40,058 nt of DNA from Shigella phage VB_Ship_A7: the sequence record MK685668. One strand, given 5' to 3'. The position numbers and the translations under genes are program-made. The notes beneath the pieces were generated by a model. It was not told the origin of the DNA, searched no databases, and saw nothing but the letters and a program-made list of their open reading frames with translations. Numbering within the stretch: the first letter of the stretch is position 1; each line of letters opens with the position of its first letter. Shown one piece after another: positions 848-32,107 of this stretch.

Positions 848-2608
848 TTACCACTCAATGAAGCAGCTAGAGTCTCCGTCGTCCTCGTAGTAGATGTCCA
901 CGCCACCAACATCGTAGCTATGGATAGCATCACCACCAACGGTCTGTTTCTCCATGTGGTGTTCAAGGAACTCAAGGGTCATCTCTTCTTCACCTACACG
1001 GCTGTCCACAAGCATCCCTTCACGCAGGAACTCGATACCCAATGCGATAGCATCAAGTCGGTCATCGTGTGCCACAGCGCCTCGCTCACGGGTCATACGG
1101 GTCATCTGATAGAACGCACTGTAGCGAACATCATGTTTCCCATCAAGGTCACGAGCAGTCTGGTAGTCCTCACGGATAACCTCATCACGAATGACCAGCT
1201 TGTGTGCACCCATCAACGGTTCGATAGTATCGCAGATTCGCATCTCCTTCATGCCTTTAGCACGGATTTCCTCTAAGGCACACTTGTGATGCTTCAGGAG
1301 AATCGGAGAGAAAATCTTACCGAACATACCGTCACCGAAGTTGGACTCGTGAACGACTGTCTGTACCTTCCACTGCTTGGCCTTCTTAGCGAGCTTCTCT
1401 AAGGTAGCATCATCGTAACCACCACGGAACCCACCGACTTCCATCAAGTAGATATAACCGTTAAGTGAGTAGAGGACTGCGTACCCGGTCTCATCCTTAC
1501 CACGACCACTTGGGTCAATGACCAGAATCTTAGACTGATACTCAGCGGTACGAGAAGAGCACGTATGGAACGCATGGATGTCATCACCCTTCAGACCAAC
1601 GTTAGGGAGTTCCTCATTGCGGTTCTGACGGTTCGGCAACCACTGGTAAGACAATGGGGCACGTTCAGGGTCCACAGCGCACACGATAGCGTCACGGAGC
1701 CGTAGCGGGTACTTCTCGGCATCACTAAGGTTCGGGTTAAGCATGAACTGAAGCGTGTAGCCAGCTTTACCGTATTCGAGTTCACGTTCACGGAGGTCAT
1801 CCATATCGAATCGAATAGGGTCAGTAGGTTGACCACGAAGTAACTCAAAGCCCTCATCGTATTCAGCCTTAAGCATCGGAGCCAAGCGGTCCCCATAGTA
1901 GAGAGCCTCAGCATCATTACGTGGATACTGTGCAGGCCAGATTACAGTGCTATACCCTTTGTTATCTTCAAGTTCCTTATAGAGCGTCATCTCGGTTTGA
2001 GGTGTCCCAAGGTAGATAACACGAGAGGTAGGCAGTGGCTTAAGTAACGCAGCAAACTCAGTTACCAACGTCCAGAGCTTCTCACGGGCAGAACTCGTAG
2101 AGCTATTACCGGGAACCTCAACGTCATCTGCGATGATGATGTCAGCACGGCTACCAGTCAACTGACCAGTGATACCTACAGACTTCACAGAGGGTGAGTG
2201 GTCTGGTTTAGCCAATCCAACGTCGAAGCTAATCACGGAGTCACGCTGTCCCGGTCGAGGTTTCAACTCAGCGAGGAATGGCAGCAGGTCAATGATGTTC
2301 TTGATGAAGATGGAGTTAGCATCAGCACGTTCCTTAGAGGCAGACACGATGAGCACCTTAAGTTGAGGGTCACGCCATAAGACCCACACAACGAACGCAC
2401 AGGTGATAAAGGACTTGCCGATACCACGGAACGCCTGAAGGATAAACTTCTTGTGGTCGCCGTTAGCGAGTGTACGTGCCATGTCAATCTGACACTTGGT
2501 TGGTTTAGGTAAGTTCAGAGCCTTCCATAAGACGAACAGGAAGGCCACGAAGTCACCCTTAAGTTGCGCAATGATTAACGCATTCTTAACTTCTTGGGAT
2601 TGTGACAT
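848..2608 (-). CDS. 19: Terminase large subunit (DNA packaging ATPase/nuclease)
   Basis: 586-aa ORF, same length as T7 gp19; ATG at 2608 with SD; last structural gene before the terminal repeat in T7 synteny. Confidence 0.95.
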
Positions 2609-3054
2609 TACTTAGCCTCCTTCTTAGTTTGCATTTCTTTGATTGTATCTTGGAGTGCACGAATCCACGCATCCCCTCTTTGAGTTACTCCGATAAGACG
2701 CTTACTAAACTCTTCGTCAAGTTCGGCTCGACCATCAACGAGGCATCCACCGTTATCTTGGAGTTCTCGTGTGGTGGCTGATAGTTTGACGCGCAAGCGC
2801 TTACCATCGTTACGCAAATCATTAATGACCCTATCAGTGCTGCCTTCCAGCGCCGCAAGGTCTTCTTGGTATTGTCGTGAGATTTCGTTGACAGCAGCCT
2901 GTTTATTCGCAGTCGCCTCAGTTTGCTTGATGTACTCATTGTGCACCTCCTGTTCCCATTTAGTGTTAGCTTTGTCATATCCGTGGTTATACGCAAGGGT
3001 AATCCCCAAGGCAAACGCAGCGATTATGGCGTAGCTCTTTAAATTCTTGAGCAT
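2608..3054 (-). CDS. 18.5: i-spanin (Rz-like, T7 gp18.5 homolog)
   Basis: 148 aa; N-terminal hydrophobic anchor ([14 protein letters not shown]) followed by a charged coiled-coil region; sits between small terminase and large terminase as in T7. Confidence 0.8.
2685..2939 (-). CDS. 18.7: o-spanin (Rz1-like lipoprotein, T7 gp18.7 position) nested in a different frame inside the i-spanin gene
   Basis: Embedded ORF in another frame; ATG at 2939 gives about 84 aa (T7 gp18.7 is 83 aa); contains a hydrophobic stretch ending in lipobox-like VSAC. Start codon choice is uncertain. Confidence 0.55.
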   Translation of the reverse strand: MSTSSKLRRLRINRLLSTKSHDNTKKTLRRWKAALIGSLMICVTMVSACASNYQPPHENSKITVDASLMVEPNLTKSLVSVLSE

Positions 3055-3152: not shown

Positions 3153-3419
3153 TCAATTCAGTGTGTACTTCTCATCTTCAGTGAGACCGTCCGCGCCCAC
3201 TAGGTTCTGGTACTCTTCGAGTCCATCTGCCAGTCCACCAAGGATGTTACGGTCTGGCTGTAACTTGGAGACTTGGAACTTGTGGCGCTCTAACAGTTTC
3301 CCGATAGCGTTGTACAGTTGAGGTGTGCGCTTATCGTCATCCTGAAGGTCTTTCAGCATACGTTGAGCCATCTCAGTGTCCAGCATCTCAAGGAATTGAA
3401 TTAAGGACTTATCAGACAT
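3153..3419 (-). CDS. 18: Terminase small subunit / DNA maturation protein
   Basis: 88 aa beginning MSDKSLIQFLEMLD, matching recalled T7 gp18 (89 aa); synteny. Confidence 0.9.
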   Translation of the reverse strand: MSDKSLIQFLEMLDTEMAQRMLKDLQDDDKRTPQLYNAIGKLLERHKFQVSKLQPDRNILGGLADGLEEYQNLVGADGLTEDEKYTLN

Positions 3420-3618
3420 CTTTACCCTCCTTCTTCCATTTGATAATCACATCGACTACCTTGGCACCAATTTGAGCCACTGTGTAGGCAATTGCGGCTA
3501 CATAGAACCACTCGTTAAGTGACAGTCCCCAAAAGAGACGAGCCACACCATCCGCTCCAGCCACACCAGCAATTGGTGCAGCCTTTACTACCTCGTTGTT
3601 GAAATCTAAAGACAACAT
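3412..3618 (-). CDS. 17.5: Class II holin (T7 gp17.5 homolog)
   Basis: Internal ATG at 3618 preceded by AAGGAGG gives 68 aa starting MLSLDFNNE (T7 gp17.5 is 67 aa); hydrophobic core WFYVAAIAYTVAQIGA; the ORF-track N-terminal extension was rejected. Confidence 0.8.
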   Translation of the reverse strand: MLSLDFNNEVVKAAPIAGVAGADGVARLFWGLSLNEWFYVAAIAYTVAQIGAKVVDVIIKWKKEGKDV

Positions 3619-3674
3619 TGTGTCCTCCTTATTGTTGAGACCATCCGTGGTCAAATTTATCAGCAGCAGCAGTG

Positions 3675-21913: not shown

Positions 21914-22159
21914 TTACGAATCTGCCTGTTCCTTACGGATTGCCTCCATGTCGTCTAAGGTTTGAGACGCATAGTTGAGACCCGCGAGGAACCCAGCGAT
22001 GTAGCTTTCAGACCACCCAGCCTGTTTCAATCGGTTGACTAGACCAGACTGCATAGCATATCCAGCGTTATATTGAACCTGAAGGTACTCCATAGTTGCA
22101 CGAGGCACATCAGGAATATCTTGTGGGTTCTCCATGTACTTCTTAATAGGGGTTAACAT
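21914..22159 (-). CDS. 6.5: T7 gp6.5-like protein
   Basis: 81 aa starting MLTPIKKYMENPQDIPDVPRATMEYLQV; first gene after the phi6.5-type promoter. Confidence 0.7.
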   Translation of the reverse strand: MLTPIKKYMENPQDIPDVPRATMEYLQVQYNAGYAMQSGLVNRLKQAGWSESYIAGFLAGLNYASQTLDDMEAIRKEQADS

Positions 22160-22211
22160 AATTAATGTTCTCCTTAAAGTTAGAACTTAAAGTAGGTATC
22201 ATATAGGCACC

Positions 22212-22234
22212 CCTCTCAATAGTGAGTCGTATTA
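22212..22234 (-). promoter_or_regulatory. T7-type phage promoter (phi6.5 position)
   Basis: Minus strand reads TAATACGACTCACTATTGAGAGG; the leader contains ACTTTAAG motifs and AAGGAGA. Confidence 0.8.
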
Positions 22235-22262
22235 ATTTCACTGTAGAGAAGAATGCCTAGAG

Positions 22263-22349
22263 TTACACACTCTTAGCTGTAAACGCGGCCCACACCATAG
22301 AGAAGGATACGACTGTGAACATCACGAGCGCAACTGTTCCGGCGACCAT
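22263..22349 (-). CDS. Mini-ORF, 28-aa hydrophobic peptide (T7 gene 6.3 position)
   Basis: ATG at 22349 with AAGGAGA 7 nt upstream, overlapping the last codons of gene 6; hand translation MVAGTVALVMFTVVSFSMVWAAFTAKSV. T7 gp6.3 is 37 aa. Confidence 0.45.
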   Translation of the reverse strand: MVAGTVALVMFTVVSFSMVWAAFTAKSV

Positions 22350-23236
22350 AGGTAAATCTCCTTGTCGATAAAGTTGTACTCTTCGAAACGAAGGATGCGA
22401 GCCATCTGGCCCTGCTTAATGATTTCCTGCTCGGTCATCCCAGCTTTCGCGCCAAGTGTCACAATCGCTTCCCACAAGGTTCGGTCTCCCATGTCAACCT
22501 TCTTCCATTCGAGGACTGTCTGACCCTTACGGGCACCAGACTTGAAAGTTTTCTCAACCTGTTCAAAGGCATACGGGTTCTCCAGCCACTCAGCGGTAGT
22601 CTCGCCCCAGCCCGGAATGCCACCATAGCCATCTGTCAAGTCACCTTTAATGGTCTGATAGATGTGCCAGTAGTCGGCAGTCGTCTGGTCTTGAGTCAAG
22701 ATGTTACCAGTAGTGCACCACAAGAAGTCACAATCAGGGATGGTCTTAAAGTCCTTATCACAGGAGACCAGCACAGCCTTCTTGAAACCAAAATGTTTAG
22801 CACCAGACCCAATGATTCCCATTACGTCATCACCCTCTAAGCGAGGCTCAAGGATAGACGTCCAGTCCTCACAGGCTTGAACACGCTCGACGAACGCACG
22901 GTAGCCTACAGGCTTACGGGATGCCTTACGGTTCTCCTTGTAGGTTGGGTCCACCAGTTCCTTACGCCAGTTCACAGAGTCAGTGAAGGCCAACACGATG
23001 GGTGCATCACGCCAAGCCTTCTTACGGCTCGCATAGGACTTGATAGAGTCAACCAGAATGTTCCATGCTTTCCCGTGGTCACACTCTAAGGTCCACACAT
23101 CATCTCCCCAATCGGTCTCTACTTCGCTTGCAGCCATCGACTGGAATACCAGCCAGTCACCATCCATTACGAGAACACCCTTATCGGATTTACCTTGGCG
23201 AATCTCATAGAACTCCTTCAGTGTAAGAGCGCTCAT
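22322..23236 (-). CDS. 6: 5'-3' exonuclease
   Basis: Internal ATG at 23236 with GGGAGG SD gives 304 aa starting MSALTLKEFYEIRQGKSDKGVLVMDGDWLVFQ (T7 gp6 is 300 aa); ATGA overlap with the preceding gene. Confidence 0.95.
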   Translation of the reverse strand: MSALTLKEFYEIRQGKSDKGVLVMDGDWLVFQSMAASEVETDWGDDVWTLECDHGKAWNILVDSIKSYASRKKAWRDAPIVLAFTDSVNWRKELVDPTYKENRKASRKPVGYRAFVERVQACEDWTSILEPRLEGDDVMGIIGSGAKHFGFKKAVLVSCDKDFKTIPDCDFLWCTTGNILTQDQTTADYWHIYQTIKGDLTDGYGGIPGWGETTAEWLENPYAFEQVEKTFKSGARKGQTVLEWKKVDMGDRTLWEAIVTLGAKAGMTEQEIIKQGQMARILRFEEYNFIDKEIYLWSPEQLRS

Positions 23237-23442
23237 ACACAACCTCCCATCTTCTTCAGGAAACGGACACCAGAACCTGTTACTTCCCAAGCGCCAGCAT
23301 TACGCCCATCGACTGATAGGCAAGAGATATGGCCACGACTCGCAGCCTCAGCCACAAGTGACGCATTGTTGCGCACATAGTTAGACTGAAAGGTCTTAGG
23401 GCAGCTTTTGATAGCCGCCAGTACACGTAGATAATCACCCAT
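23233..23442 (-). CDS. 5.7: T7 gp5.7-like protein
   Basis: 69 aa, MGDYLRVLAAIKSCPKTFQSNYVRNNASLVAEAASRGHISCL, matches recalled T7 gp5.7 (69 aa). Confidence 0.75.
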   Translation of the reverse strand: MGDYLRVLAAIKSCPKTFQSNYVRNNASLVAEAASRGHISCLSVDGRNAGAWEVTGSGVRFLKKMGGCV

Positions 23443-23744
23443 TACTTCACCTCACGAATAGTTGCTGGGGAGAATCGCATGAGCTTTCTCTCGGTTGAAC
23501 TCATTTCGCTGTGGCCCTCCCTAATAAAATTGCGAAGAGCCTGCTTGATACAGAATGTGGCAGCACCTTCTGGACCATAGGTTAGACCCTGAACTAGCAA
23601 CTCCCGTTTAAACGGGTTAAGTTCCTCACCAGTGGCAGCTTTCTTAGCGATGTCTACGAGTACATCATTCAGGTTGTTCTCAGACTCGCTATCGATTACA
23701 GCAGTAACTTCGAATGATACTTTAAAACGTTTAGTAATAGCCAT
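23442..23744 (-). CDS. 5.5: T7 gp5.5-like protein (H-NS-binding early/middle protein)
   Basis: 100 aa starting MAITKRFKVSFEVTA (T7 gp5.5 is 99 aa); synteny after DNA polymerase. Confidence 0.75.
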   Translation of the reverse strand: MAITKRFKVSFEVTAVIDSESENNLNDVLVDIAKKAATGEELNPFKRELLVQGLTYGPEGAATFCIKQALRNFIREGHSEMSSTERKLMRFSPATIREVK

Positions 23745-23755
23745 GATATTTCTCC

Positions 23756-23983
23756 TTAAAGATAGTGATTCTTGACAACCTGTTTTACTTCAGGTTCATC
23801 ATTTGATTTAGACTCGTTGACGAACTCAAGTGCCTCGCTGTAATAAGTGAATGACACCTTACGTTCTTCCGGGTAGTCCTTAAAGTGGCACCAGAACGGG
23901 AACCACTCATGACAGAACTGCGGGTAATATAAAGTCTCACCTGTAGTCATTCTGACTTCTCGAATCCTGTATCGCCATGCCAT
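23756..23983 (-). CDS. Hypothetical 75-aa protein with C-H-x5-C-H motif (occupies the T7 gene 5.3 slot)
   Basis: ATG at 23983 with GGAGG SD; sequence ...YYPQFCHEWFPFWCHFKDY...; no resemblance to T7 gp5.3 that I can recognise. Confidence 0.6.
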   Translation of the reverse strand: MAWRYRIREVRMTTGETLYYPQFCHEWFPFWCHFKDYPEERKVSFTYYSEALEFVNESKSNDEPEVKQVVKNHYL

Positions 23984-23996
23984 AAGTGGCCTCCTA

Positions 23997-26111
23997 TTAG
24001 TGACAATCTTTCCAGTTAGCGCCAGTCTTACCTTCGGTATCTAACTGACATCTAAAGTTAAAGTGGTCTCCAACATTGCGCATTGCTTGCTGTGCCAACT
24101 CGACAATCTTATCTGCAATCTCTTGAGTACGTGCAGCTACCTGAATCTCATCGTGGACCCAAGCCATGTACGCAAAGTCACCATCCCAGCCATGCTTAAG
24201 GCCAGCTTCCAGCAACAGACGTTCAGTCTCAACAATCCACAGTTTACAAATCAGAGCACCAGCAGACTGCAACAAGGTGTTCAACGCAGCGTGAGGACTA
24301 CGGACGTGTACTTTACGACCATCCAAGCCTCGAACCCAACGGCGTTTCCAAGTTACTTTCTGTTCACCACCAACCCACTTAGAGTCCTTGACGAGTGTCC
24401 CTGTGATTGCTTCACGTAACGCAGCGATAGCCGGAGTTTGCTCAAGGAAGTTCTTGATGAGTCGCTTACCATCTTCGGCAGTACCACCAATAATCTGTCC
24501 AATCTTCGCAGCACCAGCACCATAGAGGAACCCATAGATAAACGTCTTAGCGTTATCACGAGTAGGCAGACCAGCAGCCAATTGGTTCTTCGTATGGATG
24601 TCACCAGTGAGGATAGTCTCAACGTACTCACCCTCATCATAACGATACATGAAGTGGCCCAAGCAACGTAGCTCAAGGCCGGACGCATCCACACCAACTT
24701 GAATCCAAGGGTCTGGCTTACCGTCTTTCAGGTTATGCTCGGCACCGAAAGCAGCACGACAAGGTTCACCATATGCAGCACGGATTGAAGGCACCTGTGC
24801 CACGTTAGGGAAGCTATGAGTTGCACGACCAGTTACCGCACCGTTCGGGTTAACGCTTCCGTGAATACGTCCATCGTCTCCAATCATTCGGAGCCAGCCG
24901 TTATCACCTTCAGCAACCTGACCGATACGCTTCTGAATCATAAGGTATTCTTTAATCAACTCAATGCAACGCTGTGCGTCAGGGTCGTCTACCTTAACGT
25001 GCTCTAAGACCTCATCGTCTACCTTTGGTGCACCACTAGGAGTGAACTCAACTGGCACCCAGCCAGCTTTGGTAAGCACACGAGTGATGTGGTCACGACT
25101 GGCAGGGTTAAACACAACGTGCTCTACAGGCGTATATGGTGCGCCCTCTACATAATCACGAGTGTCCAGTTCACAAGGTTCCAGACCTTCACGTTGCTTC
25201 TTGTTCTTCGGCTTCTTAAAGATGCCGCCCTGTTTCGGATACTTCACACGAGGGTACTTAGTGAGAGGCTTGCCAGTTCTCGGATGACGGAATGCTTCAA
25301 CGCCACCCTTGGCCTGATACCATGAGCCGAAAGTGTTGGTCAGTTCGACCAGCAGTTCACCACGGCGACCAGCCAGTTCAGCGTAGAGATTCTCTAAGGA
25401 CTTGATGTCAATAGGAAAACCGTTACGTTCCATCTTAGCTAACAACCATGCAGCATCATGTTCCAGTTTGACAGCCTCAATGCTACCATTCCAGAAACGG
25501 TCTGCTTCTGTGCTTCCAGCGGGTGTCTCGTTAGGGAAATAGAAAGTGTTACTACACAGTTTCTCAAAGAGTGCCTTGGTGACTACAACGTCTTGAACGT
25601 TATATTCCATCATGTCTTCGTTGAAGAACAGCCACTCCATCCCGTCTTCGTATTCATCACCAGACTCTTCCAGTGACTTCTTAAAGTCGTCCTTGTACTC
25701 ACCCTTCATTTCACCTAAGCGGTAGCCCCATGCTTCCAGAGCGTGAGACCCAAATCGTTGACCCGGCAGCTTGCCAGCACGGAGCAGACCAGCATCGGTG
25801 TCTTTGATGTTAGAGTAAATCAGTCGGGACATCACTAAGGTGTCCAAGACGTTCTCTTTCGGGAACTTAACGTCACGATTAAGAATCAGCTTTGCCAGCT
25901 TCTCGATAACAGGAACGTCATACTTGTGCCCGTTGTGAAACACAATGAGACCACCACGAGCAACCTCAGCTTCGAGTGCATCAATGTATGCCCCAAAGTC
26001 ATCAGGTCGATAACGGATGTACTGGTCAGTTGTGTAGTCGTAAGTCACCGCACAGTGAAATTGACTAACGTTGTGCAGCAACCCGTTTGTTTCGATGTCG
26101 GATAGTAACAT
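23997..26111 (-). CDS. 5: DNA polymerase (family A, T7 gp5 homolog)
   Basis: 704 aa, same as T7 gp5; conserved blocks HNGHKYDVP, RFGSHALEAWGYRLGEMKGEYKDDFK, AKTFIYGFLYGAG, HDEIQV. Confidence 0.97.
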   Translation of the reverse strand: MLLSDIETNGLLHNVSQFHCAVTYDYTTDQYIRYRPDDFGAYIDALEAEVARGGLIVFHNGHKYDVPVIEKLAKLILNRDVKFPKENVLDTLVMSRLIYSNIKDTDAGLLRAGKLPGQRFGSHALEAWGYRLGEMKGEYKDDFKKSLEESGDEYEDGMEWLFFNEDMMEYNVQDVVVTKALFEKLCSNTFYFPNETPAGSTEADRFWNGSIEAVKLEHDAAWLLAKMERNGFPIDIKSLENLYAELAGRRGELLVELTNTFGSWYQAKGGVEAFRHPRTGKPLTKYPRVKYPKQGGIFKKPKNKKQREGLEPCELDTRDYVEGAPYTPVEHVVFNPASRDHITRVLTKAGWVPVEFTPSGAPKVDDEVLEHVKVDDPDAQRCIELIKEYLMIQKRIGQVAEGDNGWLRMIGDDGRIHGSVNPNGAVTGRATHSFPNVAQVPSIRAAYGEPCRAAFGAEHNLKDGKPDPWIQVGVDASGLELRCLGHFMYRYDEGEYVETILTGDIHTKNQLAAGLPTRDNAKTFIYGFLYGAGAAKIGQIIGGTAEDGKRLIKNFLEQTPAIAALREAITGTLVKDSKWVGGEQKVTWKRRWVRGLDGRKVHVRSPHAALNTLLQSAGALICKLWIVETERLLLEAGLKHGWDGDFAYMAWVHDEIQVAARTQEIADKIVELAQQAMRNVGDHFNFRCQLDTEGKTGANWKDCH

Positions 26112-26123
26112 TGTGTTTACTCC

Positions 26124-26540
26124 TTAAGATGTAGATTTACGGTAGCCCATGAAGTTCTTCGGGTCAATCACACGCAGGTTCTTGTGGTTCATCTTGTGGT
26201 ACTGAATACCAGCGACTGTACCCATTGCGTCAATACGTGTCACACGGGAACACCAAATGTCAGTCCCTTCGACCTTACGGACATACCAAATGTCTGCGTT
26301 GCTGGTGGAGGTACAGAAGTCCCCAACCTTGATGTGGGTCATCTTGTCTGCATCGAAAGTCTGCATACCAACGCTACCACACTTGGCTACTGGTTTGACC
26401 CATTTACCGTACTTGCGGGTCCACCCTAAGTTCTTCAGAATGTGGACAGCGGAGTCACGAGCACATTCATACTCTTTAACGTCTGCCAGTTCTGCTTCCA
26501 GTTTAGCGATTTCAGCTTCGATTACGTTACGATTACGCAT
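26124..26540 (-). CDS. Hypothetical protein at the T7 gene 4.7 position
   Basis: 138 aa (T7 gp4.7 is 135 aa); directly downstream of a phi4.7-type promoter and an RNase III-type hairpin. Confidence 0.55.
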   Translation of the reverse strand: MRNRNVIEAEIAKLEAELADVKEYECARDSAVHILKNLGWTRKYGKWVKPVAKCGSVGMQTFDADKMTHIKVGDFCTSTSNADIWYVRKVEGTDIWCSRVTRIDAMGTVAGIQYHKMNHKNLRVIDPKNFMGYRKSTS

Positions 26541-26549
26541 AGTGTTGGT

Positions 26550-26572
26550 CTCCCATTAGTGAGTTGAATAGA
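26550..26572 (-). promoter_or_regulatory. Divergent T7-type promoter (phi4.7 position)
   Basis: Minus strand reads CTATTCAACTCACTAATGGGAGA; the core -10 to +6 is conserved, the upstream part is divergent. Confidence 0.55.
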
Positions 26573-26577
26573 TTTCA

Positions 26578-26626
26578 TACAAAAGTTAATCACTAAGGCC
26601 ATCCGTTAAGATGACCTTTAGTTTAA
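26578..26626 (-). promoter_or_regulatory. RNase III-type processing hairpin (R4.7 position)
   Basis: Shares the GGCC...GACC(T)TGAGTTTA core with 5 other sites in the window; resembles T7 RNase III sites. Confidence 0.6.
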
Positions 26627-26631
26627 CTCTT

Positions 26632-26934
26632 TTAGATTCCAGACTTCGCAGACAGCACCATGCCCTCTTCGCCAGCCACTTTGGACAGCAGAAGTTCACG
26701 AGTCTTGTCTTCACCTACAGCCACAGTAGCAGCTACAGCAACGGAAGCCAGCAGACGACCTGCCTGTGTGTCATCCAAAGTTACACGCTGTGTGTGCGCC
26801 TTGGTGGACTTATGGTCTTTCCAACGGTAGACCAAAGTGACCTTGCCATTGCGGACATTGATGTGAACTCGACGAGCATACTGGTCGATGGTGTCGGACA
26901 GACGGATAGTGTTACCGGGGAATTTAATAGCCAT
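26632..26934 (-). CDS. Protein at the T7 gene 4.5 position
   Basis: 100 aa, ATG at 26934 with AAGGAG SD; assigned by synteny (T7 gp4.5 is 89 aa). Confidence 0.55.
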   Translation of the reverse strand: MAIKFPGNTIRLSDTIDQYARRVHINVRNGKVTLVYRWKDHKSTKAHTQRVTLDDTQAGRLLASVAVAATVAVGEDKTRELLLSKVAGEEGMVLSAKSGI

Positions 26935-26947
26935 GATGTGTCACTCC

Positions 26948-27160
26948 TTACAGGAAGAATTTGTTGAGGTCGGTTGCTTTAGCTGCAATCTTAGCAGCAG
27001 ACGTTACTCCAGCACTTGCATCTTCAGACAGCAGACGCGCCTGTTTAGCCAAGCGTTGAGCCTGTGCAGCGTCCTTACGTGCCTTGTCGTTAAGACGTTT
27101 AGCTTCACGGAAGTACATTTTAACTACCAGCTTACCAAGAGTATTGATGAATTTAAACAT
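26948..27160 (-). CDS. 4.3: T7 gp4.3-like small protein
   Basis: 70 aa, MFKFINTLGKLVVKMYFREAKRLNDKARKDA, matches recalled T7 gp4.3 (70 aa). Confidence 0.7.
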   Translation of the reverse strand: MFKFINTLGKLVVKMYFREAKRLNDKARKDAAQAQRLAKQARLLSEDASAGVTSAAKIAAKATDLNKFFL

Positions 27161-27203
27161 TGTGATTCTCCTTAAGCGGATTGATAAGTGGGAACAGAGT
27201 GTC

Positions 27204-27223
27204 TGTCCCCTTAGTGAGTTGTA

Positions 27224-27226
<3 letters not shown>
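27204..27226 (-). promoter_or_regulatory. T7-type promoter variant (phi4.3 position)
   Basis: Minus strand reads TAATACAACTCACTAAGGGGACA. Confidence 0.6.
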
Positions 27227-29082
<1,856 letters not shown>

Positions 29083-29134
29083 AGTGATTACTCCTTATAC
29101 AATTTTAGCGAACAAAGGGAGAAACCTTTCGGTC

Positions 29135-29158
29135 CTCCCATAGTGAGTTCTATTAATC
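29135..29158 (-). promoter_or_regulatory. T7-type promoter variant (phi3.8 position)
   Basis: Minus strand reads TAATAGAACTCACTATGGGAGG. Confidence 0.6.
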
Positions 29159-29245
29159 CTTACGTGTCAGAATGTAGACCATTGCCAGCATGAACGCGAG
29201 GCGATAAATCAAATCGTACAGACCCATCTCGTGGATAATCATCAT
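29153..29245 (-). CDS. Mini-ORF, 30-aa hydrophobic peptide downstream of the lysozyme gene
   Basis: ATG ATG at 29245; hand translation MMIIHEMGLYDLIYRLAFMLAMVYILTRKD; no clear SD, possibly translationally coupled to gene 3.5; its stop lies inside the promoter. Confidence 0.3.
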   Translation of the reverse strand: MMIIHEMGLYDLIYRLAFMLAMVYILTRKD

Positions 29246-29249
29246 AATA

Positions 29250-29705
29250 TTAACCCCAATCGCTTGTGACCAGTTCTCCAGTCTTCAGCCAGCGGCTCAA
29301 GTTGAAGGACGGACAGGCTTTAGGTGCAACGTCATGATGAGCTTTAATTTCTGCATCAGGATACATGTCCTTCAGGTCTGCGAGTTTCTCTTTAAGAGAC
29401 TGCATCTGTGCTGGCGTAAAGTTAGCTTCGAACTTACCTTTATCGTCAATGCCACCAACGAGGCACACACCGACTGACTTACTGTTCCAGTCCTTAACGT
29501 GAGACCCAACGACATCGACCGGACGGCCTTCTTCGATTGTCCCATCACGGCGAATAATGAAGTGATAGCCTACATCAAGCCAGCCTTGTTCTTTATGCCA
29601 CTGACGGATTTCACGCAGCCCAACATTCATGGACGCTTTGGTTGCGCTACAGTGGACAAAGATTGCTTCTGTCACAGCGCGTGGTTTGAATTGTACCTTA
29701 CTCAT
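29250..29705 (-). CDS. 3.5: Lysozyme (N-acetylmuramoyl-L-alanine amidase; in T7 also an RNAP inhibitor)
   Basis: 151 aa, same as T7 gp3.5; conserved FVHCSATK, REIRQWHKEQGWLDVGYHFII, HHDVAPKACPSF. Confidence 0.95.
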   Translation of the reverse strand: MSKVQFKPRAVTEAIFVHCSATKASMNVGLREIRQWHKEQGWLDVGYHFIIRRDGTIEEGRPVDVVGSHVKDWNSKSVGVCLVGGIDDKGKFEANFTPAQMQSLKEKLADLKDMYPDAEIKAHHDVAPKACPSFNLSRWLKTGELVTSDWG

Positions 29706-30148
29706 TTCTTCTTTACCTCTTTAAATTTATCGAATGGAACATCCTTAGAAGGCTCTTTCAGCCAATCAACTGGAATTAACTTGTCAGCAAACAGAATGCC
29801 ATGCTTCTCGCACCACTCGCCGTAACTGGTCGGAGACCCTTTGTACAGCTTGGAGCGGCTTGAAGAGAACACGATACGAACATCAAGTTCAGGGTACTGT
29901 TCACGAATCAGCAAGTGTTTCTTGCGGTCCTCACTGTCCCACAGACCTTTGGTTTCCACAAAGATGCCATTAGGTAACAGGAAGTCAGGGCAATAGGTAT
30001 GGTTGCTTGCAGGAATAACATAGGGTACTCGCCAACGCTCATAGTCGAACTTAATGTTCTTCCCTTCGAGTTGCTTGCTTACCTTATCCTCCAAGCCAGA
30101 GCGAAAGGCACCCACACGAGTGCCTCGACCTGCATAACCCTTAGACAT
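29702..30148 (-). CDS. 3: Endonuclease I (Holliday junction resolvase)
   Basis: 148 aa; VGAFRSGLEDKVSKQLE...YVIPASNHTYCPDFLLPNGIFVETKG matches recalled T7 gp3. Confidence 0.95.
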   Translation of the reverse strand: MSKGYAGRGTRVGAFRSGLEDKVSKQLEGKNIKFDYERWRVPYVIPASNHTYCPDFLLPNGIFVETKGLWDSEDRKKHLLIREQYPELDVRIVFSSSRSKLYKGSPTSYGEWCEKHGILFADKLIPVDWLKEPSKDVPFDKFKEVKKK

Positions 30149-30852
30149 TAGAAGTCACCATCTTCGTCTTCATCGTCCTCTTCTTCTTCTGGTTCTTCAT
30201 TCCAGCCAGAGTCGTTTTGTGGCTTGCGGGTCTGTGCTTCATCAGCTTCGTACCCGTCTTCTTCGACTTCATCCGCCCAGTCATCCTCACCACCACCGAA
30301 CTCTACCAGCTTAATCAGCATCACGGAATCCAGTTGCAGCTTAACGGAAGCACCTGCCACAGCAGACCAACCATAAGGGAACAGGGTGTATTTAATCTTC
30401 AGTTCAGAGCCACCGGAGATAGCCGGACGCTCACCACGAATGCGCTTACCTTTGGAGTCCACAATAGCCAAGTCGATTGGTTTGTTCTCACCAGTCTTCT
30501 TGTCAGTGAACGAGCCGTAGCACTTGAAGTTGAACGTAGTGGTTCCATCTTCGTTATCCATGAAAGGCATGTCGCCAACGTATGGCTTCAGCGGTTTCTT
30601 ACCCTTGACAACTTTCGGCGGGTTAGCTTCGTACTCTTCGAGACGTGCAGCATAATCCGTTTCGTGGGCTTCGACAATCTCGTCAATCATTTTCTGACAG
30701 CGAGGGTCGTCGTTGGATACAGTCAGTGACACTTTGTAGACACCACGTTCGTTCTTGAAGTCACCGCTACCGAAGTCTGGTTTAGCAAGATAGCAGTAAG
30801 GTTCAGCAACGCCACGAGCGGAAGTGAATACTTTACGTTTATTGAAAGCCAT
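30148..30852 (-). CDS. 2.5: Single-stranded DNA-binding protein
   Basis: Internal ATG at 30852 with AAGGAGA SD; product starts MAFNKRKVFTSARGVAEPY and has an acidic C-terminal tail ending EDEDGDF, as in T7 gp2.5. Confidence 0.95.
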   Translation of the reverse strand: MAFNKRKVFTSARGVAEPYCYLAKPDFGSGDFKNERGVYKVSLTVSNDDPRCQKMIDEIVEAHETDYAARLEEYEANPPKVVKGKKPLKPYVGDMPFMDNEDGTTTFNFKCYGSFTDKKTGENKPIDLAIVDSKGKRIRGERPAISGGSELKIKYTLFPYGWSAVAGASVKLQLDSVMLIKLVEFGGGEDDWADEVEEDGYEADEAQTRKPQNDSGWNEEPEEEEDDEDEDGDF

Positions 30853-30901
30853 GATGTTTCTCCTTTGAGGTTTCTGAAAGTTAAAAGTGGGAAACGATGT
30901 G

Positions 30902-30924
30902 TCTCCCAATAGTGAGTCCTATTA
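30902..30924 (-). promoter_or_regulatory. T7-type phage promoter (phi2.5 position)
   Basis: Minus strand reads TAATAGGACTCACTATTGGGAGA. Confidence 0.8.
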
Positions 30925-31113
30925 AACCTTTCGGTCTGGACGGATGCGTGTCACTGCGAAGCCAGCCGGGACGTATTGCCACTCAGCTAACTCGTTGGCC
31001 TCTTCAAGAGACACAGCGAACACAGGGACTTCGAACGATTGGCCTTGGCCTTCTACCGTTGCGAAGAACTTCTTGTCACCGTTGACCAGTGACCCTTTGT
31101 TTAAATTACTCAT
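30922..31113 (-). CDS. 2: Host RNA polymerase inhibitor (T7 gp2 homolog)
   Basis: Internal ATG at 31113; 63 aa, [59 protein letters not shown], matching recalled T7 gp2 (64 aa). Confidence 0.85.
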
Positions 31114-31200
31114 AGTCCTCTCCCTTTCCACAGGTTGTACACTTCGAGGTAGTCAGAGTTGCCCGTCTTTTCGAACATACGCTCACACCATTCACTCGGT

Positions 31201-31374
31201 TTAAGCATCGTCATATTCAATCACCTCGTTACGTGAAAGATATACTTCTTCGCCATGCTTGTTCATGATTTTATAGAACTTACCGTCCCATGTTCGCTCT
31301 GCAAAGAATATGTCATGGCGTTTAACTAGTGCCATCATATCATCTTCACCCACATACTCGACCTTAATAATCAT
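31201..31374 (-). CDS. Hypothetical small protein (T7 gene 1.8 position)
   Basis: Internal ATG at 31374 gives 57 aa (MIIKVEYVGEDD...); position only. Confidence 0.4.
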   Translation of the reverse strand: MIIKVEYVGEDDMMALVKRHDIFFAERTWDGKFYKIMNKHGEEVYLSRNEVIEYDDA

Positions 31375-31657
31375 AGCACTTGTCCTTATGTTTCTCGAAC
31401 AGTTCACCATAGAACCCAGCTTTCGCCATGTCCTTCTCTAAGAATGCCAGTTCAGATTTCTTACCAGCACGTAGGCGATACTTCAGGATGTTCCCGTAGC
31501 AGTACCCTTTGAACTGTTCAAGGGTCATCGACCGGGCAATCACTTCGATAGCCTCAATGTCGTCAAACAACATATAGTGGCTAGGAGTCCGAACACCCTC
31601 TATATCTTGTGGTTGTTTGTAGTCTTTCTCCCACGCATCACCGTCTAACAGTCCCAT
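31364..31657 (-). CDS. Hypothetical 97-aa protein (T7 gene 1.7 position; much shorter than T7 gp1.7)
   Basis: ATG at 31657 with AAGGAGG SD; TAATG overlap with the upstream gene; T7 gp1.7 is 196 aa. Confidence 0.5.
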   Translation of the reverse strand: MGLLDGDAWEKDYKQPQDIEGVRTPSHYMLFDDIEAIEVIARSMTLEQFKGYCYGNILKYRLRAGKKSELAFLEKDMAKAGFYGELFEKHKDKCYDY

Positions 31658-31920
31658 TAGAACACCTCCTTGATACGCGCAATGACCAGACGGACTTTAG
31701 GGAAACGGGTGACGAGAACCGGAATGAAAGGCCGGGAGCCAGTGGTCGCTTCTTTATATAAGCCAGTAGTAATTACAGCGTGAACACGAGGTGCTAACTC
31801 AATGGTCGAGCCAAGCACTTTAGGGATGACTGCGTGTTTCTCAGAGGCCAGCACAGTAGAACGGTCAGAGCCACGAGCAGAGAAGATGCCATTAGATTTG
31901 TTGAAGTGAAGTCTTAACAT
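31657..31920 (-). CDS. Hypothetical protein (T7 gene 1.6 position)
   Basis: Second ATG at 31920 lies 8 nt after the GGAGG that is part of the promoter transcript start; 87 aa (T7 gp1.6 is 88 aa). The ORF-track start at 31935 is inside the promoter. Confidence 0.5.
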   Translation of the reverse strand: MLRLHFNKSNGIFSARGSDRSTVLASEKHAVIPKVLGSTIELAPRVHAVITTGLYKEATTGSRPFIPVLVTRFPKVRLVIARIKEVF

Positions 31921-31927
31921 AGTTGTG

Positions 31928-31950
31928 TCCTCCATAGGTGAGTCGTATTA
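31928..31950 (-). promoter_or_regulatory. T7-type promoter variant (phi1.6 position)
   Basis: Minus strand reads TAATACGACTCACCTATGGAGGA. Confidence 0.6.
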
Positions 31951-32028
31951 ACAATCAGGCCAGCAGTTGTCATCAATGATAACGAGAGCAAACGTGGCAA
32001 CAATGATAGCAACAATTAGAAATATCAT
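31948..32028 (-). CDS. Mini-ORF, 25-aa hydrophobic peptide (T7 gene 1.5 position)
   Basis: ATG at 32028 with GGAGGAA SD supplied by the upstream promoter start region; hand translation MIFLIVAIIVATFALVIIDDNCWPDC; T7 gp1.5 is 29 aa. Confidence 0.35.
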   Translation of the reverse strand: MIFLIVAIIVATFALVIIDDNCWPDC

Positions 32029-32036
32029 GAGGTTGT

Positions 32037-32059
32037 TCCTCCATAGTGAGTCATATAGA
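32037..32059 (-). promoter_or_regulatory. Divergent T7-type promoter (phi1.5 position)
   Basis: Minus strand reads CTATATGACTCACTATGGAGGAA. Confidence 0.5.
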
Positions 32060-32064
32060 AACGC

Positions 32065-32095
32065 AAAAAGGCCAGCCCCCTGTTAAGGACTGACC
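32065..32095 (-). terminator. Intrinsic terminator after the ligase gene (T7 early terminator TE position)
   Basis: Minus-strand RNA GGUCAGUCC-UUAACAGG-GGGCUGGCC followed by UUUUU; 9-bp stem with two G-U pairs. Confidence 0.65.
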
Positions 32096-32107
32096 ATTGA
32101 GTTTAAT

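What the first reader, a model, noticed from the sequence alone, without database searches (positions are those of the whole stretch)
22263..32028. Four mini-ORFs encoding 25-30 aa hydrophobic peptides, each next to or overlapping a promoter or gene end
Hand translation finds short ORFs that would each form a single transmembrane-like helix. Three have good Shine-Dalgarno sequences: 22263-22349 (28 aa, overlapping the end of gene 6), 28996-29082 (28 aa, upstream of gene 4) and 31948-32028 (25 aa); 29153-29245 (30 aa) has no clear SD and may be translationally coupled to gene 3.5. T7 has tiny genes at similar positions (1.5, 6.3), so some are likely real. Small membrane peptides in phages can be modulators of lysis, superinfection exclusion or host membrane proteins. 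All are below the ORF-track cutoff.
Basis: partly seen in the sequence, partly recalled or inferred. Interest (0 to 1): 0.5.

Follow-up and report, generated by a model that had tools for sequence, protein, structure and literature searches.

The report
Four tiny T7-type membrane peptide genes
The four mini-ORFs are real, conserved small genes of a T7-like (Berlinvirus) phage: genes 1.5 and 6.3 plus two unnamed ORFs already recorded in phage BA14; they are ordinary for this group and their function is still unknown.

Summary
The window is a Berlinvirus (T7-like) genome with its genes on the minus strand. All four ORFs exist at the stated coordinates, though 31948-32028 encodes 26 aa, not 25.

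They match features annotated in phage BA14:
- gp1.5
- two "unknown product" ORFs between amidase gene 3.5 and primase/helicase gene 4A
- gp6.3

Three match PHROG families over their full length (E 1e-16 to 1e-22).

Evidence that they are genes:
- **Chance:** shuffled gap sequences give such hydrophobic ORFs in 1-5% of trials per gap, and two in one gap in 0.02%.
- **Translation signals:** three have Shine-Dalgarno sites as strong as typical genes. The fourth starts 4 nt after the gene 3.5 stop.
- **Coding signature:** relatives show excess synonymous and hydrophobicity-preserving changes, in-frame indels and a fixed stop position. For 6.3 this signature is not significant within the genus, but an ORF sits at the same slot in 70 of 73 related loci.

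Three peptides are predicted single transmembrane helices. The 30-aa one is marginal.

Natural losses show dispensability. The 30-aa ORF is absent from P483, and 6.3 is destroyed in Yersinia pestis phages.

Function is unknown. The best guess is accessory inner-membrane micro-proteins acting on the host. Already known; low interest.

The parts
31948..32028 (-). Gene 1.5: 26 aa, MIFLIVAIIVATFALVIIDDNCWPDC. An N-terminal hydrophobic helix (residues 1-18) followed by an acidic DDNCWPDC tail.
   Evidence: ORF. BA14 annotates the equivalent as gp1.5. Full-length match to phrog_10145, E 1.8e-16. T3 and T7 gp1.5 have the same architecture. The tail is invariant with synonymous variation, dN/dS 0.34. 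Excess of synonymous changes P=0.02.
32038..32058 (-). phi1.5 phage-RNAP promoter. Its initially transcribed GGAGG (32042-32038) doubles as the Shine-Dalgarno site of gene 1.5, 9 nt before the ATG.
   Evidence: Promoter consensus match with 3 mismatches. BA14 annotates phi1.5 here. Sequence. SD duplex -9.3 kcal/mol.
31928..31950 (-). phi1.6 promoter. The TAA stop of gene 1.5 is its first triplet.
   Evidence: Sequence TAATACGACTCACCTATGGAGGAC. BA14 annotates phi1.6 at the homologous site.
32070..32095 (-). Early terminator TE (stem-loop followed by a T run) between the ligase gene and phi1.5.
   Evidence: Terminator scan. BA14 annotates TE here.
29153..29245 (-). 30-aa ORF in the '3.7 slot': MMIIHEMGLYDLIYRLAFMLAMVYILTRKD. 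It starts 4 nt after the gene 3.5 stop and has only a weak Shine-Dalgarno site. It is the coding part of the stretch present in this window and BA14 but absent from P483.
   Evidence: ORF. BA14 AS7_0017 'unknown product'. phrog_25602, E 5e-21. Two alleles share 76% aa identity with many synonymous differences; excess synonymous changes P<0.0002. Absent from P483, where the gene 3.5 stop abuts the promoter. Found in 39 phage records, including T7-type phages. This exact peptide is annotated as a hypothetical protein on a 40058-nt contig.
29135..29155 (-). phi3.8-type promoter. The TAA stop of the 30-aa ORF is its first triplet.
   Evidence: Consensus match TAATAGAACTCACTATGGGAG. BA14 annotates a promoter here.
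29117..29139 (-). 5' leader hairpin GGGAGGACCGAAAGGUUUCUCCC of the phi3.8 transcript. T3 annotates RNase III site R3.8 at the same position.
   Evidence: RNA fold. T3 annotation. Invariant among window, BA14 and P483 except for 2 nt.
28996..29082 (-). 28-aa ORF in the '3.8 slot': [28 protein letters not shown]. First cistron of the phi3.8 transcript, with SD AAGGAG at 29096-29091. Its stop codon overlaps the SD of gene 4A (ATG at 28985).
   Evidence: ORF. BA14 AS7_0018 'unknown product'. phrog_25193, E 3e-22. 50 phage records at 89-100% identity. The stop position is fixed while the codon varies TAG/TAA/TGA, and in-frame 12-nt duplications occur. Synonymous excess P=0.02; conservative replacements P=0.0006.
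22263..22349 (-). Gene 6.3: 28 aa, MVAGTVALVMFTVVSFSMVWAAFTAKSV. It starts inside the last 28 nt of exonuclease gene 6, in another frame, with SD AAGGAG at 22363-22358.
   Evidence: ORF. BA14 gp6.3. An ORF starts at the same offset in 70 of 73 related loci, 55 of them with a predicted transmembrane segment. The ORF decays in the Y. pestis phage clade through a nonsense mutation plus a 30-nt deletion.
22214..22234 (-). phi6.5 promoter, 29 nt downstream of the gene 6.3 stop.
   Evidence: Consensus match with 2 mismatches. BA14 annotates phi6.5 here.

Best explanation
The four ORFs are genuine, separately translated middle (class II) genes of a Berlinvirus. They encode 26-30-aa accessory peptides.

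Shown here:
- They sit in fixed slots: between phi1.5 and phi1.6; directly after amidase gene 3.5; as first cistron of the phi3.8 transcript just before primase/helicase gene 4A; and overlapping the end of exonuclease gene 6.
- Three have gene-grade ribosome-binding sites.
- Their frames, stop positions and hydrophobic character are kept in relatives with a protein-coding substitution pattern.

Inferred:
- The peptides are shorter than the ribosome exit tunnel, so they are released whole and insert post-translationally into the host inner membrane.
- gp1.5 would be an N-terminal anchor. Its acidic DDNCWPDC tail is most likely periplasmic (negative-outside rule).
- The 28-aa peptide and gp6.3 would be single helices flanked by a few basic residues.
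- The 30-aa peptide is only marginally hydrophobic. It may lie at the membrane interface or act in the cytoplasm. It is probably made by re-initiation after gene 3.5.
- They act as dispensable, fast-evolving host-interaction factors that bind or perturb inner-membrane components during takeover. They are not the lysis machinery.
For: - Identity with annotated genes: BA14 gp1.5, gp6.3 and two 'unknown product' ORFs; T7 and T3 genes 1.5 and 6.3 at the same positions.
- Full-length PHROG matches for three of the four.
- Chance is excluded by shuffles.
- SD strength equals that of real genes for three.
- Phage promoters lie directly upstream of gene 1.5 and of the 28-aa ORF.
- Pooled dN/dS is 0.34, 0.21, 0.09 and 0.51.
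- Excess synonymous changes: P=0.02 (1.5), 0.02 (28-aa ORF), <0.0002 (30-aa ORF). Replacements preserve hydrophobicity: P=0.02, 0.0006, 0.0004.
- In the gp1.5 tail, all variation is synonymous apart from one C-to-Y change. The 'hydrophobic helix + DD..P' architecture is kept in T7, T3, Przondovirus and other lineages.
- For the 28-aa ORF the stop position is fixed while the codon changes, and indels are in frame.
- The 6.3 slot is filled in 70 of 73 loci. It decays by a nonsense mutation plus a deletion in one clade, so elsewhere it is maintained.
- Transmembrane propensity is met for three peptides.
- Literature: T7 gp1.5 inhibits E. coli growth in minimal medium and is suppressed by stringent-like RNAP alleles (bioRxiv 10.64898/2026.01.27.700999). 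Gene 1.5 knockouts arise in parallel in ligase-deleted T7 and T3 (PMC2696425).
Against: - There are no expression data (Ribo-seq, proteomics) for any of the four in this or any related phage in the searchable library.
- Within Berlinvirus, 6.3 variation is not significantly coding-like (P=0.16 and 0.25). This 6.3 also fails the Pfam DUF5516 model that covers T7, T3 and Klebsiella-phage gp6.3.
- Conservation of the 28-aa ORF is partly confounded. The promoter, leader and gene 4A initiation region around it are almost invariant at the nucleotide level.
- The 30-aa peptide is not a clear transmembrane helix.
- Natural losses show that none is essential. The 30-aa ORF is missing in P483, PcCB251, DS_BP2 and PC127; 6.3 is destroyed in Y. 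pestis phages.
- The T7 gp1.5 toxicity came from a screen in which 34 of 53 T7 genes were toxic, so it is weak evidence of a specific target.
- Membrane insertion, topology and any host target are inference only.
Confidence: 0.6

Rival explanations
1. Translation matters but the peptides do not. The ORFs would be leader or spacer cistrons whose translation opens mRNA structure, or delivers ribosomes, for the next gene. The 28-aa ORF would serve gene 4A and gene 1.5 would serve 1.6. The 30-aa ORF would be a by-product of re-initiation after 3.5.
For: - The stop of the 28-aa ORF overlaps the gene 4A SD and lies 10 nt before its ATG.
- In the predicted fold, the 4A SD and AUG pair partly with the last codons of the ORF.
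- A comparable small ORF ends 8 nt before gene 4A in Przondovirus loci. That peptide is found in 299 Klebsiella-phage records.
- The 30-aa ORF starts 4 nt after the 3.5 stop.
Against: - A pure leader role predicts no amino-acid constraint. Synonymous changes are in excess and replacements preserve hydrophobicity.
- Unrelated sequences in the same slots are again hydrophobic helices.
- T3 and T7 express gene 4A without such an upstream mini-ORF.
- The structure prediction is not distinctive: z = -1.76, and both SDs are about one-third unpaired.
Confidence: 0.15
2. The peptides are lysis-timing or envelope-lysis modulators (holin-, antiholin- or pinholin-like). This applies especially to the 30-aa ORF that directly follows the amidase/lysozyme gene 3.5.
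For: - It sits next to the only peptidoglycan hydrolase gene.
- In other lineages the same slot after 3.5 holds other small hydrophobic ORFs, such as MVYTLFFVLIGLVASTLIAAFIHDMFFNDNY and MLTQALIIFGLPILLVSTLYCINREWFSDGQE.
Against: - A canonical holin (phrog_920, E 1e-30) and an Rz-like spanin (phrog_1327) are present in the late region at 3412-3654 and 2608-3054.
- The four ORFs lie in the middle (DNA metabolism) transcription class.
- The 30-aa peptide has the weakest transmembrane propensity.
- It is absent from close relatives such as P483.
- At 26-30 aa they are far shorter than known holins (from established knowledge, not tested here).
Confidence: 0.1
3. The ORFs are not genes. They would be chance open frames kept only because they overlap conserved DNA or RNA signals: promoters, an RNase III hairpin, the gene 6 end and the gene 4A initiation region.
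For: - Each touches a promoter or a gene end.
- Most GenBank records leave them unannotated.
- The nucleotide sequence around the 28-aa ORF is almost invariant.
- The within-genus pattern of 6.3 is not significant.
Against: - Shuffles give such ORFs rarely: 1.3-5.4% per gap, and 0.02% for two in one gap.
- Variable sites concentrate at codon position 3, and pooled dN/dS is 0.09-0.51.
- Indels are in frame, and the stop position is kept while the codon changes.
- The gp1.5 tail is conserved outside the core promoter with synonymous variation.
- The overlapping alternative frame in the 1.5 region shows an anti-coding pattern, with 14, 10 and 6 variable sites on its codon positions 1, 2 and 3 (derived).
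- Where selection lapsed, 6.3 decayed quickly.
Confidence: 0.05

Closest known systems
Gene 1.5 of the T7 group (T7 gp1.5, 29 aa; T3 gp1.5, 25 aa; BA14 gp1.5, 26 aa; phrog_10145)
   Same: - Same slot after ligase and terminator TE, between phi1.5 and phi1.6.
- Same architecture: a hydrophobic N-terminal helix followed at once by an acidic, proline-containing tail (DDNCWPDC, DDNIWPDC, DDDMPDGHA).
- Full-length match to the PHROG family shared with T3.
   Different: - Only 77-96% identical to other Berlinvirus copies and 56% to T3.
- T7's copy falls in a different PHROG, phrog_12128.
- The function of the family is unknown. Published data are limited to conditional toxicity and parallel loss in ligase-deleted lines.
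Gene 6.3 of T7, T3 and Klebsiella phages (Pfam DUF5516 / PF17637; phrog_5008, phrog_11345)
   Same: - Same position and mode of expression. The ORF starts about 28 nt inside the end of gene 6 in another frame, from an SD formed by gene 6 codons, and ends before phi6.5.
- A single hydrophobic helix with a Trp about two-thirds along.
   Different: - No sequence match to DUF5516 at E up to 10, and none to its PHROGs.
- hhalign probability is 0.3%.
- At 28 aa instead of 36-37, it lacks the basic amphipathic C-terminal tail (...RDVKRDSEIK, ...KQIVEHKAE).
BA14 ORFs AS7_0017 and AS7_0018 ('unknown product'; phrog_25602 and phrog_25193)
   Same: - They are the direct orthologues of 29153-29245 and 28996-29082, with the same order: 3.5, small ORF, promoter, small ORF, 4A.
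- Identity is 76% and 96%.
- Database names are 'unknown product', 'hypothetical protein' or 'Uncharacterized protein'.
   Different: - The window carries the other allele of the 30-aa ORF, the one also found in 285P, ErnstBeyeler and CarlSpitteler.
- No function has been assigned to either family.
Small ORF immediately upstream of gene 4A in Klebsiella Przondovirus phages (phrog_13077; e.g. MSNLKDFDIIPLLAYGVLGLWGVTFLIAFFMSCVDGTAL)
   Same: - A hydrophobic mini-ORF with a strong SD ends 8-10 nt before the gene 4A ATG. The peptide is found in 299 Klebsiella-phage records.
- A Y. pestis Berlinvirus variant (MYNLKEH...CLRPFL) shares an N-terminal motif with the Klebsiella type and the C-terminus with the window type.
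   Different: - Homology is not demonstrable: hhalign E 0.33, and the PHROGs differ.
- The Klebsiella peptides are longer, at 31-40 aa.
Bacterial small inner-membrane proteins and type I toxins of 19-50 aa (e.g. KdpF, MgtS, AcrZ; TisB, ShoB, Ibs). This is a functional analogy from established knowledge. A phage example is the small membrane protein Gp11 of staphylococcal phage PhiNM1 (PMC11237401, abstract seen).
   Same: - Size, a single hydrophobic helix and few flanking charges.
- Expected post-translational insertion.
- Growth inhibition on over-expression has been reported for T7 gp1.5.
   Different: - No sequence relationship.
- No antisense-RNA control is evident.
- Neither a host target nor membrane depolarisation has been shown for any of these phage peptides.

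Membership tests
T7-group gene 1.5 (phrog_10145) | Full-length profile match | tested here: met
   E 1.8e-16, residues 1-26 on profile positions 1-26 of 26. T3 gp1.5 hits the same PHROG.
T7-group gene 1.5 (phrog_10145) | Position downstream of ligase and TE, between promoters phi1.5 and phi1.6 | tested here: met
   TE at 32095-32070, phi1.5 at 32058-32038, ORF at 32028-31948, phi1.6 from 31950. T7, T3 and BA14 have the same layout.
T7-group gene 1.5 (phrog_10145) | N-terminal hydrophobic helix followed by an acidic, Pro-containing tail | tested here: met
   dGapp -5.4 for residues 2-18 and net charge -3. D20 and P24 are nearly invariant across 14 divergent sequences.
Gene 6.3 / Pfam DUF5516 (PF17637) | Match to the DUF5516 HMM above the gathering score | tested here: not met
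   No hit at E up to 10 for the window or BA14 peptide. T7, T3 and Klebsiella-phage gp6.3 score 56-68 bits against a cutoff of 25. hhalign probability 0.3%.
Gene 6.3 / Pfam DUF5516 (PF17637) | ORF starting inside the 3' end of exonuclease gene 6 in another frame and ending before phi6.5 | tested here: met
   28-nt overlap with gene 6, and phi6.5 lies 29 nt downstream. The start offset is the same in 70 of 73 loci.
Gene 6.3 / Pfam DUF5516 (PF17637) | Single transmembrane helix followed by a basic C-terminal tail | tested here: inconclusive
   The helix is present (25-residue uncharged run, dGapp about 0). The tail is reduced to KSV, or to TL in other Berlinviruses.
phrog_25193 (BA14 AS7_0018 type) | Full-length profile match and position as first cistron after the phi3.8 promoter, before gene 4A | tested here: met
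   E 3.1e-22, residues 1-28 of 28. Layout.
phrog_25602 (BA14 AS7_0017 type) | Full-length profile match and position directly after amidase gene 3.5 | tested here: met
   E 5.4e-21, residues 1-29 of 29. Layout.
Holins / lysis modulators | At least one clear transmembrane domain, a place in the lysis cassette, and a requirement for lysis | tested here: not met
   The ORF next to the amidase gene has the weakest transmembrane score, +3.0. The canonical holin (phrog_920) and Rz spanin are elsewhere, at 3412-3654 and 2608-3054. A requirement for lysis cannot be tested with these tools.
Type I toxin-like small membrane toxins | Membrane depolarisation or toxicity on expression, and an antisense RNA antitoxin | not testable with these tools
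   The only data are the literature report of conditional toxicity for T7 gp1.5. No antisense phage promoter was found: all 13 phage promoter matches are on the coding strand.

The most novel reading that the evidence does not exclude
The middle-gene region of T7-like phages (Studiervirinae) contains at least four fixed 'slots': after phi1.5, after gene 3.5, before gene 4A, and across the gene 6 stop. These slots are repeatedly filled by fast-evolving, often mutually unrelated single-helix micro-proteins that are swapped between genera. Examples are the 30-aa ORF at 86-89% identity in T7-type phages, and a Y. pestis-specific allele of the pre-4A peptide.

This would make them a host-specific inner-membrane effector repertoire, for instance against membrane-anchored defence or exclusion systems. 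It has not been described as such.
Probability: 0.2. Interest if true: 0.5.

Novelty: already known. Interest (0 to 1): 0.2.

Why it matters
The result confirms that automatic annotation routinely misses real 26-30-aa genes in T7-like phages. Most GenBank records show no feature over these ORFs. Three of the four exact peptides from this window are absent from a 15-billion-protein collection.

These small genes are conserved and probably membrane-directed. None of the four families has a known function, even in the best-studied phage group. They are therefore cheap, well-defined targets for deletion, tagging and host-target screens.

The finding adds no new kind of element. Genes 1.5 and 6.3 are standard named T7 and T3 genes, and all four ORFs are in the 2008 BA14 record.

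Tried and rejected
tblastn against the phage collection was used instead.
2. Pfam gave no hit for any of the four peptides.
3. Profile-profile tests found nothing significant for deep homology, either for the Berlinvirus pre-4A peptide against the Przondovirus type or for Berlinvirus 6.3 against DUF5516 members. Only positional equivalence is claimed.
4. Literature searches found no ribosome profiling or proteomics of T7-group small genes in the held library. One search failed on a term that was too short.
5. RNA-structure-based coupling of the 28-aa ORF to gene 4A is inconclusive. The fold z-score is -1.76, and both SDs are about one-third unpaired.
6. I considered co-translational membrane tethering of the gene 4A mRNA by the upstream peptide and rejected it. 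A 28-aa chain does not leave the ribosome tunnel before termination (established knowledge).
7. The Cys/His-rich alternative-frame ORF across gene 1.5 (32044-31973, MEEQPHDISNCCYHCCHVCSRYH) stays open in relatives. However, its ATG lies upstream of the phi1.5 start site, and its codon-position pattern is anti-coding. It was rejected as a gene.
8. Structure prediction was not attempted. Three peptides are below the 30-aa limit, and a single helix would be uninformative.

Full report
**What the window is.** The 10-kb stretch around the finding matches T7-like phages of the genus Berlinvirus. Identity is 96.9% to Escherichia phage P483 and 92% to BA14, and 77 records cover at least 80% of the stretch. 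The genes run on the minus strand. Thirteen matches to the phage-RNA-polymerase promoter consensus all lie on that strand. The finding therefore concerns the middle (class II, DNA-metabolism) region of a T7-type genome.

**Checking the observation.** All four ORFs are present at the stated coordinates.
- 22263-22349: 28 aa.
- 28996-29082: 28 aa.
- 29153-29245: 30 aa.

Reading the sequence confirms the stated context.
- The first ORF starts 28 nt inside the end of exonuclease gene 6. Its AAGGAG is formed by gene 6 codons.
- The second has AAGGAG 8 nt upstream of its ATG. Its stop codon overlaps the Shine-Dalgarno site of gene 4A, whose ATG follows 10 nt later.
- The third starts 4 nt after the stop of amidase gene 3.5. 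Its TAA is the first triplet of a phage promoter.
- The fourth lies exactly between promoters phi1.5 and phi1.6. The GGAGG of the phi1.5 initial transcript serves as its Shine-Dalgarno site.

Duplex energies with the 16S rRNA tail are -8.5, -8.8 and -9.3 kcal/mol for the three 'good' sites. The median for the window's 35 large genes is -8.7. The ORF after gene 3.5 scores -5.4. The early terminator TE lies just upstream of phi1.5.

**Chance.** In 5000 dinucleotide-preserving shuffles of each intergenic gap, a hydrophobic ATG ORF of at least 25 aa appeared in 5.1%, 5.4% and 1.3% of trials. Two in the 3.5-4A gap appeared in 0.02%. On the coding strand of the whole window only six ATG ORFs of 25-45 aa are this hydrophobic. 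Four of them are the ones reported, and those four fill the gaps between known genes.

**They are already annotated elsewhere.** The BA14 record (EU734171) lists all four:
- gp6.3
- 'unknown product' AS7_0018, before gene 4A
- 'unknown product' AS7_0017, after gene 3.5
- gp1.5, flanked by annotated phi1.5, phi1.6 and TE

T7 has genes 1.5 (29 aa) and 6.3 (37 aa) at the same places. T3 has 1.5 (25 aa), 3.7 (35 aa, not hydrophobic) and 6.3 (37 aa).

Three of the window peptides match PHROG families over their whole length: phrog_10145, phrog_25193 and phrog_25602, all of unknown function, with E from 1.8e-16 to 3.1e-22. Pfam has nothing for any of them.

Exact-sequence look-up shows the BA14 versions named 'gp1.5', 'gp6.3' and 'unknown product'. 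The window's 30-aa peptide is annotated as a hypothetical protein on a 40058-nt contig. The window's other three peptides are not in the collection at all.

Most GenBank records show no feature over these ORFs.

**Conservation.** I fetched 80 related loci from IMG/VR through the amidase gene and anchored the gaps on flanking genes.

*Gene 1.5.* Every Berlinvirus copy keeps the tail DDNCWPDC. The hydrophobic segment varies by hydrophobic swaps. Variation in the tail is synonymous except for one C-to-Y change. T3-type (MWLILFAIVATLGLMVADDNIWPDC), T7-type (...SDDDMPDGHA), Przondovirus (...NDEPPKGA) and other lineages keep the same design: a helix followed by an acidic, proline-containing tail. 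tblastn finds it in 188 phage records.

*The 28-aa ORF.*
- It is 89-100% identical in 50 records from phages of Escherichia, Salmonella, Yersinia, Pectobacterium, Erwinia, Kluyvera and Enterobacter.
- Its stop stays at the same position while the codon changes among TAG, TAA and TGA.
- Two phages carry an in-frame 12-nt duplication.
- The 34 Y. pestis Berlinviruses carry a divergent occupant, MYNLKEHVFVILICVLIIGGACLRPFL.

*The 30-aa ORF.*
- It exists as two alleles that are 76% identical in protein, with many synonymous differences.
- It occurs at 86-89% identity in T7-type phages of another genus.
- The stretch containing it is absent from P483. There the gene 3.5 stop abuts the promoter, and TTAATA marks both ends of the extra stretch in the window.
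- It is also missing in PcCB251, DS_BP2 and PC127.

*Gene 6.3.*
- An ORF of 20-80 aa starts at the same offset inside the end of gene 6 in 70 of 73 loci.
- 55 of these have a predicted transmembrane segment, although the sequences differ greatly between lineages.
- In the Y. pestis clade it has been destroyed by GGA-to-TGA at codon 4 plus a 30-nt deletion. The frame therefore decays when it is not maintained.

**Coding signature.** Pooled pairwise dN/dS is 0.34 (1.5), 0.21 (28-aa ORF), 0.09 (30-aa ORF) and 0.51 (6.3). I placed the observed numbers of transitions and transversions at random on each consensus.

| ORF | P (synonymous excess) | P (replacements preserve hydrophobicity) |
|---|---|---|
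| 1.5 | 0.02 | 0.02 |
| 28-aa ORF | 0.02 | 0.0006 |
| 30-aa ORF (both alleles) | <0.0002 | 0.0004 |
| 6.3, non-overlapping part | 0.16 | 0.25 |

Gene 6.3 is the one that rests on positional conservation rather than substitution pattern. An alternative-frame ORF across gene 1.5 stays open in relatives. However, its variable sites fall 14, 10 and 6 on its codon positions 1, 2 and 3, and its ATG lies upstream of the phi1.5 start. It is not a gene.

**Nature of the peptides.** I used the Hessa biological hydrophobicity scale, with values recalled from the 2005 paper.

| Peptide | Best 17-residue dGapp sum (kcal/mol) |
|---|---|
| gp1.5 | -5.4 |
| 28-aa peptide | -1.7 |
| gp6.3 | -0.1 |
| 30-aa peptide | +3.0 |
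| Non-hydrophobic controls | +16 to +19 |

The 30-aa peptide has conserved E6, D11 and R15, and its longest uncharged run is only 12 residues. Three are therefore good single-helix membrane candidates and one is marginal.

The chains are no longer than the ribosome exit tunnel, so insertion would have to be post-translational (established knowledge). gp1.5 has net charge -3 concentrated in its tail, so the tail is most plausibly periplasmic. This is inference.

**Family membership.**
- Gene 1.5 and the two unnamed ORFs meet their family definitions by profile, position and architecture.
- The window's 6.3 is a positional equivalent of T7/T3 gp6.3 but not a demonstrable member of Pfam DUF5516. 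T7, T3 and Klebsiella-phage gp6.3 score 56-68 bits. The Berlinvirus peptide gives no hit at E up to 10, and hhalign gives 0.3% probability. It also lacks the basic C-terminal tail.
- A small hydrophobic ORF also ends 8 nt before gene 4A in Przondovirus loci. That peptide is found in 299 Klebsiella-phage records. Homology to the window's 28-aa ORF could not be shown.

**Function.** Nothing here assigns one. The literature in reach gives only the following.
- T7 gp1.5 inhibits E. coli growth in minimal medium, and stringent-like RNA polymerase alleles suppress this. In that screen 34 of 53 T7 genes were toxic (bioRxiv 10.64898/2026.01.27.700999).
- Knockouts of gene 1.5 arose in parallel in ligase-deleted T7 and T3 lines (PMC2696425).
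- gp6.3 is classed as non-essential (PMC9825161).

A lysis role is unlikely. The window has a canonical holin (phrog_920) and an Rz-like spanin in its late region. A pure translational-coupling role for the 28-aa ORF is possible on geometry and on a weak structure prediction. It does not explain the amino-acid-level constraint.

My best account is that these are dispensable accessory micro-proteins of the middle period. Three would insert into the host inner membrane and act on host membrane components.

**Verdict.** The elements are already known: two are standard named T7-group genes, and two are recorded, un-named ORFs with PHROG families. Interest is therefore low.

The residual points of interest are two.
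- These real genes are mostly missed by annotation.
- T7-like phages keep several fixed slots filled by rapidly diverging, sometimes exchanged, single-helix peptides of unknown function.

Noticed in passing
window 27224-27553 (-): A gene 4.2-like ORF of 109 aa (phrog_5140, E 3e-46) lies out of frame inside the 3' end of primase/helicase gene 4A, ending next to the promoter match at 27226-27206 that BA14 annotates as phi4.3. Its N-terminal half is strongly hydrophobic ([18 protein letters not shown]..., several transmembrane-like runs). It is a larger membrane-type protein of unknown function in the same region.
   Followed up: partly
L013 (IMG/VR contig of the Y. pestis Berlinvirus type), gene 6 end to 6.5; equivalent to window 22263-22349: Gene 6.3 is destroyed in the Yersinia pestis phage clade by GGA-to-TGA at codon 4 plus a 30-nt deletion of the hydrophobic core. 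The same clade (34 records) carries a divergent peptide, MYNLKEHVFVILICVLIIGGACLRPFL, in the slot before gene 4A.
   Followed up: yes
window 29153-29249 vs P483 (L002) and BA14 (L001): The 30-aa ORF lies in an extra stretch that is absent from P483. TTAATA, the 5' edge of the promoter, marks both ends of that stretch in the window. In P483 the stop of gene 3.5 itself supplies the promoter's first triplet. The same ORF occurs at 86-89% identity in T7-type phages of another genus (Bas103, Bas104, JeanTinguely, 64795_ec1; L065), which suggests exchange between genera.
   Followed up: partly
window 31973-32044 (-): A Cys/His-rich alternative-frame ORF (MEEQPHDISNCCYHCCHVCSRYH) overlaps gene 1.5 and stays open in about 12 Berlinvirus loci. 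Its ATG lies upstream of the phi1.5 transcription start, and its variable sites fall mostly on its own codon positions 1 and 2. It is probably incidental.
   Followed up: yes
window 22143-22241 (-): A 32-aa non-hydrophobic ORF spans phi6.5 and the start of gene 6.5. BA14 annotates the shorter internal version (MIPTLSSNFKENINYVNPY...) as 'unknown product' AS7_0032. Its conservation was not tested.
   Followed up: no
L003 (P483) between ligase and phi1.5; equivalent to window about 32060-32107: P483 and several other relatives carry an HNH homing-endonuclease-like ORF (about 110 aa) inserted between the ligase gene and gene 1.5. This window lacks it. Similar HNH insertions occur in the 3.5-4A gap of some Klebsiella phages.
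   Followed up: no
L015, L036, L041, L045, L051, L071, L072, L078: slot directly after gene 3.5: In other Studiervirinae lineages the slot right after the amidase gene holds different small ORFs with a hydrophobic helix followed by an aromatic/acidic tail. Examples are MVYTLFFVLIGLVASTLIAAFIHDMFFNDNY, MTGIGLTLIFIGSGIITFIGWWFFPEHFEL and MLTQALIIFGLPILLVSTLYCINREWFSDGQE. T3-type phages have a Cys-rich 35-aa gene 3.7 there, and another clade has a gp4.3-like 70-aa ORF.
   Followed up: partly
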